Of a stretch of 64,000 nt of DNA, positions 37,534 through 38,028 are shown piece by piece. Numbering within the stretch: position 1 is the first letter of the stretch; the number at the start of each line of letters is the position of its first letter. The notes below the pieces were generated by a model. The model did no database searches. It was given only the letters and a program-made list of their open reading frames with translations, and had not been told where the DNA came from. The position numbers and the translations under genes are program-made. This DNA is from a virus, in UHGV virus genome UHGV-1682877. The stretch is one strand, 5' to 3'.

Positions 37534-38028
37534 ATCATAGGTACTATTATTTACACTGATGGCTCAACTTTAAAAAATGGTAGTAAAGATGCTTCTGGAG
37601 GTTATGGAGTAGTTGTTTACAAGTATCTTAAAGACCCCAAAAATTTACATTTAGTAAATGCTTTTGCTCATCAAACTATTGGAACTACAAATAACAGAGA
37701 AGAAATGAAAGCTATTCTTTGGGCTTTGTATAACTATGGAGTTTCAGCGGATTCTTTTACTTATCCTATTGTTTATACAGATTCTTTATATTGTGTAAAT
37801 ACTTTCAATGATTGGATGTACAGGTGGAAAAATAATAATTGGCGGAAAGCAGATAAATCGACTCCTGAAAATTTGGATTTAATAAAATTTTATGATATAA
37901 TATATAATAAATGGAATAGAAAGATTGATTTAAGAAAAATTAAAGGTCATGCTGGTATTGAAGGCAATGAACTTGCTGATGATTTAGCTACTGGTAGAGT
38001 GACTGTTAAGGAGGTATTGGATGAATAA
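37534..38028 (+). CDS. ribonuclease H (RNase HI-like) with apparent non-AUG start
   Basis: IIYTDGS ... GGYGVVVY ... NNREEM ... HAGIEGNELAD follow RNase H catalytic layout; domain begins before first ATG (37705); in-frame stop at 37531; SD AAGGGAG at 37521-37527. Confidence 0.6.
   Translation: MIGTIIYTDGSTLKNGSKDASGGYGVVVYKYLKDPKNLHLVNAFAHQTIGTTNNREEMKAILWALYNYGVSADSFTYPIVYTDSLYCVNTFNDWMYRWKNNNWRKADKSTPENLDLIKFYDIIYNKWNRKIDLRKIKGHAGIEGNELADDLATGRVTVKEVLDE

What the first reader, a model, noticed from the sequence alone, without database searches (positions are those of the whole stretch)
37534..38028. RNase H gene whose catalytic domain begins upstream of the first AUG
The conserved RNase H N-terminus (IIYTDGS...) is encoded from 37534, immediately after an in-frame TAA and 7-10 nt downstream of AAGGGAG, but the first ATG in frame is at 37705, which would delete the first catalytic Asp. 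Initiation therefore seems to use AUC or AUA (37534 or 37537), or the gene is 5'-damaged.
Basis: seen in the sequence. Interest (0 to 1): 0.5.

Follow-up and report, generated by a model that had tools for sequence, protein, structure and literature searches.

The report
Phage RNase H gene lacking AUG start
A complete, selectively maintained RNase HI gene in an uncultured gut phage has no ATG, GTG or TTG from which the whole enzyme could be made, so it is almost certainly started at a rare AUA or AUC codon behind a long ribosome-binding site; public annotations therefore truncate it to an inactive fragment.

Summary
The stop-to-stop ORF 37534..38028 (+) encodes a full RNase HI (Pfam PF00075, E 6.5e-27, matched from residue 4). 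The first in-frame ATG/GTG/TTG is 37705 (codon 58), which would remove catalytic Asp9 and Glu57.

It is not damage or a base error. Thirteen relatives' contigs from separate metagenome samples, plus one IMG/VR contig (9 haplotypes with the window, 92-99.8% nt identity), all keep ATC ATA GGT ACT with no canonical start. Codons 1-57 are under strong purifying selection (pN/pS 0.05-0.19, pS up to 0.42).

More distant orthologues (47-66% identity) almost all read ATG ATA/ATT nnn ATT TAT ACN GAT, so ATC sits where the ancestral ATG was.

A 9-nt SD (AGAAGGGAG; AGAAAGGAG in three diverged relatives, L001, L016 and L017) lies 6 nt before ATC and 9 nt before ATA. In this phage's own genes 7-10 nt is the usual gap, which mildly favours ATA.

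No upstream ORF, frameshift route or initiator-like phage tRNA exists in the window.

Verdict: a real gene with near-cognate (AUA/AUC) initiation. The mechanism is known (infC, pcnB, S. aureus ccpN), and this is a new example of it. Which codon is used, and whether the weak start is selected for, remain open. Interest is modest; the practical point is systematic mis-annotation.

The parts
37386..37420 (+). Intrinsic terminator hairpin (16-bp stem, T tail) ending the upstream lysin/holin-like unit. It separates the RNase H gene from upstream translation.
   Evidence: One search found one terminator-like site (0.4 expected from shuffles). It is conserved in relatives, with a loop AAA/TTT polymorphism.
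37446..37454 (+). Extended -10 promoter-like element TGATATAAT (TG-n-TATAAT), with TTGTTT 17 nt upstream. It is the probable start of the rnh-gyrB-gyrA transcription unit (inferred).
   Evidence: Read in the sequence. It is invariant in all relatives that reach this far. It was not listed by the scan because the -35 hexamer matches only 3 of 6 positions. This is an inference and was not tested.
37519..37527 (+). Extended Shine-Dalgarno AGAAGGGAG. It gives nine consecutive pairs (one G-U) with a Firmicute-type 16S 3' tail CUCCUUUCU. L001, L016 and L017 have the perfect AGAAAGGAG.
   Evidence: Predicted duplex energy is -13.1 kcal/mol, and only 3 of 41 other gene starts in the window are stronger. 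The host 16S tail is assumed, not known.
37531..37533 (+). In-frame stop TAA that closes the frame just before the gene. It is dispensable: TGA in L016 and L017, AAA in L015.
   Evidence: The next upstream in-frame stop is 9 codons earlier, with no start codon between them.
37534..37536 (+). ATC, candidate initiation codon. It sits at the position homologous to the ATG of orthologues (ATG ATA ...) and 6 nt after GGAG.
   Evidence: A gap of 6 nt is seen in 1 of 41 own-genome starts.
37537..37539 (+). ATA, candidate initiation codon, 9 nt after GGAG. This falls within the genome's usual 7-10 nt spacing.
   Evidence: a gap of 9 nt in 5 of 41 starts, and gaps of 7-10 nt in 30 of 41. It is invariant in all relatives.
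37534..38028 (+). Complete RNase HI coding sequence (164 codons plus TAA). Catalytic codons are Asp9 37558-37560, Glu57 37702-37704, Asp83 37780-37782, His139 and Asp149 37978-37980.
   Evidence: Pfam PF00075, 94.9 bits against a cutoff of 25.8. PDB RNase HI matches reach E 8e-16. D9, E57, D83, H139 and D149 are invariant in the orthologue alignment. pN/pS is 0.05-0.19 in codons 1-57 and 0.00-0.15 in codons 58-164.
37705..37707 (+). First canonical start (ATG, Met58). Gene callers use it, giving the 107-aa fragment deposited as 'ribonuclease HI'. It is an internal Met that is nearly invariant in orthologues (REEMKAI).
   Evidence: (P0003, 107 aa, nr 'MAG TPA: ribonuclease HI [Caudoviricetes sp.]').
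38021..39901 (+). Next gene, a GyrB-like type II topoisomerase subunit. Its ATG overlaps the RNase H 3' end by 8 nt, and its own SD AAGGAGG lies inside the RNase H gene. A GyrA-like gene follows at 39914-42289.

Best explanation
37534..38028 is an intact, functional type-1 RNase H (RNase HI) gene. It is the first gene of a replication/topology unit (rnh, gyrB-like, gyrA-like) in an uncultured gut phage; a relative's IMG/VR contig is about 137 kb. The lineage has lost the ancestral ATG, probably by ATG to ATC. The protein is now initiated by fMet-tRNA at a near-cognate AUH codon: ATA 37537 (slightly favoured by SD spacing) and/or ATC 37534 (the homologous position). A long 9-nt Shine-Dalgarno sequence positions the codon. 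The expected consequence is lower translation than from AUG, perhaps 1-30% judging from E. coli and S. aureus reporters, which evidently suffices or is preferred for this enzyme. Shown: completeness of the domain, absence of any canonical start or alternative reading-frame route, conservation of ATC ATA and the SD, and purifying selection on the pre-ATG segment. Inferred: which codon is used, the promoter, the expression level, and whether the weak start is adaptive.
For: The domain fills the ORF from residue 4, and the catalytic Asp9 and Glu57 precede the first ATG.

No ATG/GTG/TTG occurs in any frame from 37480 to 37556. The upstream region is a terminator plus promoter, not an ORF.

Thirteen relatives' contigs from separate samples plus one IMG/VR contig, giving 9 haplotypes with the window at 92.3-99.8% nt identity, all read ATC ATA GGT ACT with no canonical start.

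Codons 1-57 show Sd=16 against Nd=4 between the window and L016 (pN/pS 0.07). The binomial p against neutrality is 8e-8, and there are no stops or indels.

Orthologues at 47-66% identity have ATG 2-4 codons before YTD, typically ATG ATA/ATT. These include the closest ones that were looked up (L103, L104 and L105, for P0004, P0008 and P0013); L105 shows the same lysin, small ORF, RNase H, gyrB order with one extra small ORF.

The SD is among the strongest in the window, 4th of 42 sites. Spacing to ATA (9 nt) falls in the genome's modal 7-10 nt range.

Precedent exists. AUA, AUC and AUU initiate at 1-2% of AUG in E. coli, with Met at the N-terminus (10.1101/063800). In the Firmicute S. aureus, conserved AUA/AUU starts of infC, ccpN, cvfC1 and citZ have extended SDs and give about 10-30% of AUG (PMC13009471).
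Against: There is no direct evidence of initiation: no proteomics, ribosome profiling or reporter data. ATC and ATA cannot be told apart. Invariance of two Ile-type codons across this shallow tree is not statistically significant on its own. The host, and therefore its 16S anti-SD tail, is unknown. A Firmicute is inferred only from the low GC content (30%), the SD motifs and an SLH domain in the lysin. The gap of 6 nt to ATC is unusual for this genome, and 9 nt to ATA is common but not the mode. Whether the weak start is selected for or merely tolerated is not resolved.
Confidence: 0.85

Rival explanations
1. The gene is a pseudogene or 5'-damaged remnant. The ATG was lost, and only a non-functional or nothing-producing ORF remains.
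For: There is no canonical start before the catalytic Asp. Gene callers give only truncated products.
Against: pN/pS is 0.05-0.19 in the pre-ATG 57 codons with pS up to 0.42, and no stops or indels occur in 9 haplotypes. All five active-site residues are kept. The SD and promoter-like element are conserved.
Confidence: 0.03
2. The only product is the 107-aa protein from ATG 37705, a catalytically dead RNase H C-terminal fragment with some other role. The upstream codons are untranslated leader.
For: ATG 37705 is the first canonical start. Public annotation uses it.
Against: No SD precedes 37705; the upstream sequence is aacagagaagaa. Met58 is the conserved internal Met of the REEMKAI helix in all orthologues. 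The fragment lacks Asp9 and Glu57, and by alignment to E. coli RNase HI it lacks the first three beta strands (plus established structure knowledge). The 'leader' evolves as coding sequence.
Confidence: 0.04
3. Assembly or sequencing error hides a real ATG.
For: A single base (C to G at 37536, or A to G at 37539) would create an ATG.
Against: The identical ATC ATA appears in thirteen contigs from separate ENA/Logan samples and one IMG/VR contig, including lineages 5-8% diverged.
Confidence: 0.01
4. Translation enters the frame by another unconventional route: initiation at ATT 37546/37549, a frameshift from an upstream ORF, stop-codon readthrough, or a phage-encoded initiator tRNA reading AUA.
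For: ATT codons exist at codons 5-6. The phage encodes tRNA-Ile(UAU) and 16 other tRNAs. One distant orthologue (L034) overlaps an upstream ORF in the -1 frame.
Against: The ATT codons lie 18-21 nt from GGAG, outside the 3-13 nt range of this genome, and codon 5 is GTT in L001. There is no upstream ORF or start codon in any frame, and the in-frame upstream segment holds no start codon. The tRNA-Ile(UAU) and the tRNA(CAU) have elongator features: a paired 1-72 and no three G-C pairs in the anticodon stem. Only the 64-kb window was searched for tRNAs.
Confidence: 0.05

Closest known systems
Bacterial genes with conserved near-cognate AUH start codons: E. coli infC and pcnB (AUU); S. aureus infC (AUA), ccpN (AUA), cvfC1 (AUU), citZ (AUA)
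   Same: The gene is full length with no usable AUG/GUG/UUG. An AUH codon sits at normal distance from a strong or extended SD. The non-canonical codon is conserved among relatives. The expected effect is reduced, IF3-sensitive initiation.
   Different: This is a phage gene for RNase HI, not a host regulator or initiation factor. Two adjacent candidate codons (AUC AUA) are present. Initiation has not been shown experimentally. No autoregulatory logic is evident.
RNase HI (rnhA, Pfam PF00075) of E. coli and of large phages (for example T5-like 'rnhA' genes)
   Same: The fold family, length (about 155-165 aa) and DEDD+His active site are the same. There is 36-39% identity to annotated phage RNase H genes and E 8e-16 to E. 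coli RNase HI variant chains and about 1e-13 to the wild-type entries.
   Different: The closest relatives are all uncultured (one search found no nucleotide match in 50,697 phage records). Orthologues carry ATG, and this lineage does not.
Genes missed or truncated by annotation because of alternative starts (the problem addressed by stop-to-stop ORF tools such as StORF-Reporter, PMC10682499)
   Same: The gene is recovered complete only as a stop-to-stop ORF. Database entries are 107, 127 or 139 aa depending on the first ATG/GTG/TTG available.
   Different: The gene is not missed altogether. It is called in truncated form and still named ribonuclease HI.

Membership tests
RNase HI / type 1 RNase H (Pfam PF00075) | Sequence match above the curated family threshold over the whole domain | tested here: met
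   The score is 94.9 bits against a 25.8 cutoff. Residues 4-153 match model positions 4-137 of 141.
RNase HI / type 1 RNase H (Pfam PF00075) | Catalytic carboxylates Asp10, Glu48, Asp70, Asp134 and His124 (E. coli numbering) | tested here: met
   Asp9, Glu57, Asp83, Asp149 and His139 align to them and are invariant in the orthologue alignment.
RNase HI / type 1 RNase H (Pfam PF00075) | Cleavage of RNA in RNA-DNA hybrids | not testable with these tools
   This needs an enzymatic assay of the expressed protein.
Genes initiated at a near-cognate AUH codon (infC/pcnB/ccpN type) | No AUG/GUG/UUG from which the complete conserved protein could be made | tested here: met
   The first canonical start is codon 58. 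None exists in any frame from 37480 to 37556.
Genes initiated at a near-cognate AUH codon (infC/pcnB/ccpN type) | AUH codon at functional distance from a Shine-Dalgarno sequence | tested here: met
   GGAG lies 6 nt before ATC and 9 nt before ATA. The genome's own range is 3-13 nt, with the mode at 7-10 nt.
Genes initiated at a near-cognate AUH codon (infC/pcnB/ccpN type) | Conservation of the non-canonical codon and coding constraint upstream of the first canonical start | tested here: met
   ATC ATA is kept in 9 of 9 haplotypes. pN/pS is 0.05-0.19 for codons 1-57.
Genes initiated at a near-cognate AUH codon (infC/pcnB/ccpN type) | Extended SD-antiSD pairing accompanying the weak codon (as described for S. 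aureus) | tested here: inconclusive
   There is a 9-nt complementarity, ranked 4th of 42 sites. The host 16S 3' tail was assumed to be Firmicute-type.
Genes initiated at a near-cognate AUH codon (infC/pcnB/ccpN type) | Direct demonstration of initiation at that codon (N-terminal peptide, toeprint, initiation-arrest ribosome profiling) | not testable with these tools
   This needs an experiment.
Pseudogene | Relaxed constraint, frameshifts or premature stops | tested here: not met
   
Programmed frameshift / readthrough gene | Upstream ORF with its own start in another frame or before the stop, plus a slippery or readthrough context | tested here: not met
   No upstream ORF or start codon exists. 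The stop before ATC varies (TAA, TGA, AAA) without opening access to any start.

The most novel reading that the evidence does not exclude
The weak AUC/AUA start is not a tolerated lesion but a selected translational throttle on a phage RNase HI. It would keep the enzyme low, or tie its synthesis to IF3 activity or host physiological state, during replication. This solution may have arisen more than once in the family: a second, independent orthologue (L034) has ATT exactly where the ATG should be. Persistence without reversion across lineages with pS up to 0.42 is compatible with this, given that a single A to G or C to G change would restore ATG, but it does not prove it.
Probability: 0.3. 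Interest if true: 0.45.

Novelty: new member of a known kind. Interest (0 to 1): 0.33.

Why it matters
The finding matters for three reasons. First, it is a clean example, replicated across natural samples, of a viral gene that must be initiated at AUA or AUC. Validated non-canonical starts are very rare: the E. coli study read here lists two confirmed cases, and the S. aureus study adds a handful. I did not find phage cases documented in the two literature searches run. Second, every database copy of this protein found here, including the entry named 'ribonuclease HI' in nr, is truncated to a fragment lacking two catalytic residues. Functional inferences or structure predictions from those entries are therefore wrong. 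Stop-to-stop ORF plus domain-coverage checks would catch such cases. Third, the AUC-AUA pair with a 9-nt SD makes a convenient natural test case for how SD spacing chooses between neighbouring near-cognate codons. If the weak start is adaptive, it would also show how phages tune RNase H dosage during replication.

Tried and rejected
Several lines led nowhere or were rejected.

1. A nucleotide search of 50,697 phage records with 36900-38700 gave no match. There is no cultured close relative, and protein-level hits are at most 39% identical.

2. Exact-pattern scans of metagenome and viral contigs for the 5' coding motif returned only contigs already held. No closer outgroup showing the ATG-to-ATC transition was found.

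3. I tested whether a phage-encoded initiator tRNA might read AUA. The window has tRNA-Ile(UAU) and a tRNA(CAU). Neither has initiator hallmarks such as a 1-72 mismatch or three G-C pairs in the anticodon stem. The idea is rejected for the window; the rest of the genome was not seen.

4. I looked for regulatory RNA structure around the start. Folding 37461-37600 gives -15 kcal/mol with z = +0.56, no better than shuffles. Rfam finds only tRNAs in the window.

5. I looked for an upstream mini-ORF or a frameshift route. None exists.

6. I searched for relatives of the second exception, L034, to check whether its ATT is conserved. Only the same contig came back, so that case stays unreplicated.

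7. A literature search for phage genes with ATA/ATC starts returned nothing specific.

Full report
**What is in the sequence**

An in-frame TAA (37531-37533) is followed by ATC (37534), ATA (37537) and GGT ACT ATT ATT TAC ACT GAT GGC TCA. This gives I-I-G-T-I-I-Y-T-D-G-S, and the frame stays open to TAA 38026-38028, 164 codons in all.

AAGGGAG lies at 37521-37527. The mechanical ORF list starts this ORF at ATG 37705, codon 58, giving 107 aa.

Between 37480 and 37556 there is no ATG, GTG or TTG in any frame. The upstream in-frame segment is only nine codons long, from another TAA, and holds no start codon.

Upstream lie a strong intrinsic terminator (37386-37420) and an extended -10-like TGATATAAT (37446-37454, read). 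The gene therefore appears to open a new transcription unit rather than continue an upstream ORF.

Among all plus-strand ORFs of at least 100 codons in the window, this is the only one whose first canonical start is more than 30 codons in.

**What it encodes**

The 164-aa translation matches Pfam RNase_H (PF00075) at E 6.5e-27. Residues 4-153 cover model positions 4-137 of 141. The 107-aa version covers only model positions 63-137.

Against PDB sequences the best hits are E. coli RNase HI variants (E 8e-16), with query residue 6 aligned to E. coli residue 7. Asp9, Glu57, Asp83, His139 and Asp149 correspond to E. coli Asp10, Glu48, Asp70, His124 and Asp134. They are invariant in an alignment with nine orthologues.

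Glu57 is the codon immediately before ATG 37705. A product started at that ATG would lack two of the four catalytic carboxylates. From the known RNase HI fold, it would also lack the first three beta strands.

**Context**

The surrounding genes were identified.

- PhoH/PIN-like gene: 34915-36186
- Peptidase_C39_2 lysin with an SLH domain: 36257-37051
- Small hydrophobic ORF: 37035-37376
- Terminator and promoter-like element
- RNase HI: 37534-38028
- GyrB-like gene: 38021-39901, overlapping RNase H by 8 nt and carrying its own AAGGAGG
- GyrA-like gene: 39914-42289

The window is 30% GC, with nearly all genes on the plus strand, and it carries 17 tRNA genes. There is no nucleotide match among 50,697 deposited phage genomes.

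The closest relative in IMG/VR is a 137.7-kb uncultured viral genome (L001). The source is therefore a large uncultured phage. A low-GC Gram-positive-type host is inferred from the SD motifs and the SLH domain.

**Is it damage or error? No.**

The protein search returned three near-identical database proteins of 139, 127 and 107 aa. Each starts at whatever ATG, GTG or TTG that variant offers. The 107-aa form is deposited in nr as 'MAG TPA: ribonuclease HI [Caudoviricetes sp.]' and is indexed in 28 blocks of the collection (24 contigs read).

I fetched DNA for thirteen such contigs from separate ENA and Logan samples, plus the IMG/VR contig. Every one reads ATC ATA GGT ACT at the homologous position, with no canonical start before the Asp.

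Together with the window they form 9 distinct haplotypes at 92.3-99.8% nucleotide identity.

The codon before ATC is TAA in most, TGA in L016 and L017, and AAA in L015. The stop itself is therefore not a required feature, and losing it exposes no start codon.

Nei-Gojobori counts were made separately for codons 1-57 (before the ATG) and 58-164. The N-terminal segment gives pN/pS of 0.05-0.19 at pS up to 0.42. An example is window against L016, with 16 synonymous and 4 non-synonymous differences and a binomial p of 8e-8 against neutrality. The rest of the gene is similar, at 0.00-0.15. No stops or indels occur.

The segment upstream of the first ATG is therefore translated and constrained. It has remained so over substantial divergence without a canonical start.

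**What orthologues show**

Eighty more distant loci from IMG/VR were recovered with a profile. I walked upstream in frame from each match and found about 42 distinct start regions.

Nearly all have an ATG 2-4 codons before [YF]TD. The typical form is ATG ATA/ATT nnn ATT TAT ACN GAT, encoding M-I-x-I-Y-T-D.

Three of the closest outgroups, looked up directly, do the same:

- L104 (P0008): ATG ATA GTA ATT TAC ACA GAT
- L103 (P0004): ATG TTA TGT ATT TTT ACT GAT
- L105 (P0013): ATG ATT ACG ATT TAT ACT GAT, with the same lysin, small ORF, RNase H, gyrB order apart from one extra small ORF before gyrB

MAFFT aligns the window's I1-I2 with the orthologues' M1-I2. The simplest history is ATG ATA to ATC ATA, a G-to-C change in the start codon, plus a two-codon insertion.

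One other exception turned up. L034 has no canonical start, and ATT sits exactly at the ATG position (ATT TTA AGC ATT TAT ACA GAT), 10 nt after GGAG. Only one contig carries it, so it is recorded but not relied on.

**How it most likely works**

The ribosome-binding site is long. AGAAGGGAG (37519-37527) gives nine consecutive pairs, one of them G-U, with a Firmicute-type 16S tail. In L001, L016 and L017 it is the perfect AGAAAGGAG.

By predicted duplex energy it ranks 4th of 42 start sites in the window. The caveat is that the host's 16S tail is assumed.

I calibrated spacing on 41 of the phage's own genes with a GGAG upstream. Thirty have 7-10 nt between GGAG and the start, five have 9 nt and one has 6 nt.

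ATA at 9 nt is thus better placed than ATC at 6 nt. ATC, however, is the historical start position.

Intrinsic strengths are similar. In E. coli, AUA, AUC and AUU each give 1-2% of AUG, and the product begins with Met (10.1101/063800). In S. aureus, natural conserved AUA/AUU starts with extended SDs give about 10%, and up to 30%, of AUG (PMC13009471).

My estimate is roughly 55% for ATA, 35% for ATC, and the remainder for both or neither. The local RNA is not unusually structured.

The consequence is inferred, not shown: RNase HI is made at a low rate relative to the AUG-initiated gyrB-like gene that follows, which has its own SD.

**Alternatives examined**

- Pseudogene and sequencing error are excluded by the selection and replication data above.
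- A functional 107-aa product as the sole output is unlikely. No SD precedes 37705, Met58 is a conserved internal residue, and the upstream segment evolves as coding sequence.
- Initiation at ATT 37546 or 37549 is disfavoured by the 18-21 nt distance from the SD and by GTT at codon 5 in L001.
- Frameshifting or readthrough has no upstream ORF to start from.
- The phage-encoded tRNA-Ile(UAU) at 14649-14724 suggested a phage initiator reading AUA. Both it and the tRNA(CAU) at 16015-16087 have elongator features.

**Comparison with the known, and verdict**

Mechanistically this belongs with the small set of bacterial genes that use AUH start codons: infC and pcnB in E. coli, and infC, ccpN, cvfC1 and citZ in S. 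aureus. It meets the sequence-level criteria for that class, namely no canonical start, an AUH codon at SD distance, conservation, and a strong SD. It lacks only direct experimental proof.

The protein itself is an ordinary RNase HI.

It is therefore a new member of a known kind. The 'damaged gene' alternative is rejected.

Interest is modest. The immediate practical value is correcting a truncated annotation that recurs in every database copy found here. The open questions are which codon is used and whether the weak start is adaptive.

Noticed in passing
window 14649-17659 and 25100-26358: There are two arrays totalling 17 tRNA genes (ARAGORN; Rfam confirms 16). They include tRNA-Ile with anticodon UAU (14649-14724), which reads AUA directly without lysidine. 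It is elongator-type, not initiator-like.
   Followed up: partly
window 16876-16948: A tRNA-like gene (Rfam tRNA, 53 bits) has an 8-nt anticodon loop CUUGAAAA, which ARAGORN reports as a four-base anticodon 'tgaa'. Its acceptor stem folds poorly on its own. It could be a quadruplet-reading or frameshift-type tRNA, or a degenerate copy.
   Followed up: no
L034 1478-1510 (IMGVR_UViG_3300045988_151351, 201 kb): This is a second, independent RNase HI orthologue without any ATG/GTG/TTG before the catalytic Asp. ATT sits exactly where orthologues have ATG, 10 nt after GGAG. The frame overlaps the end of an upstream 58-aa ORF in the -1 frame. It occurs on a single contig only, and no relatives were found.
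   Followed up: partly
window 37386-37420 and the same hairpin in L001, L009, L014, L015: The 3-nt loop of the terminator hairpin is AAA in the window and most relatives but TTT in four others, with the stem unchanged. This looks like a loop-inversion polymorphism.
   Followed up: no
L016 1913-3420: In this relative the GyrB-like gene is called as only 427 aa and is followed by a GIY-YIG gene. This suggests a homing-endonuclease insertion splitting the topoisomerase gene, which is intact (626 aa) in the window.
   Followed up: no
L014 84-1172: In this relative the lysin and the following small hydrophobic ORF are called as one 362-aa gene. Elsewhere they are two overlapping genes of 264 and 113 aa. 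This may be a fusion or frameshift variant, or an assembly indel.
   Followed up: no
window 36257-37051: The Peptidase_C39_2-type lysin carries a C-terminal SLH (S-layer homology) domain. This hints at a host with an S-layer-anchoring cell wall and is the only host clue found.
   Followed up: no
database proteins P0001, P0002, P0003: The same gene is deposited as 139-, 127- and 107-aa proteins, depending on which internal GTG, TTG or ATG each variant offers. The nr entry is named 'ribonuclease HI' although it lacks two catalytic residues.
   Followed up: yes
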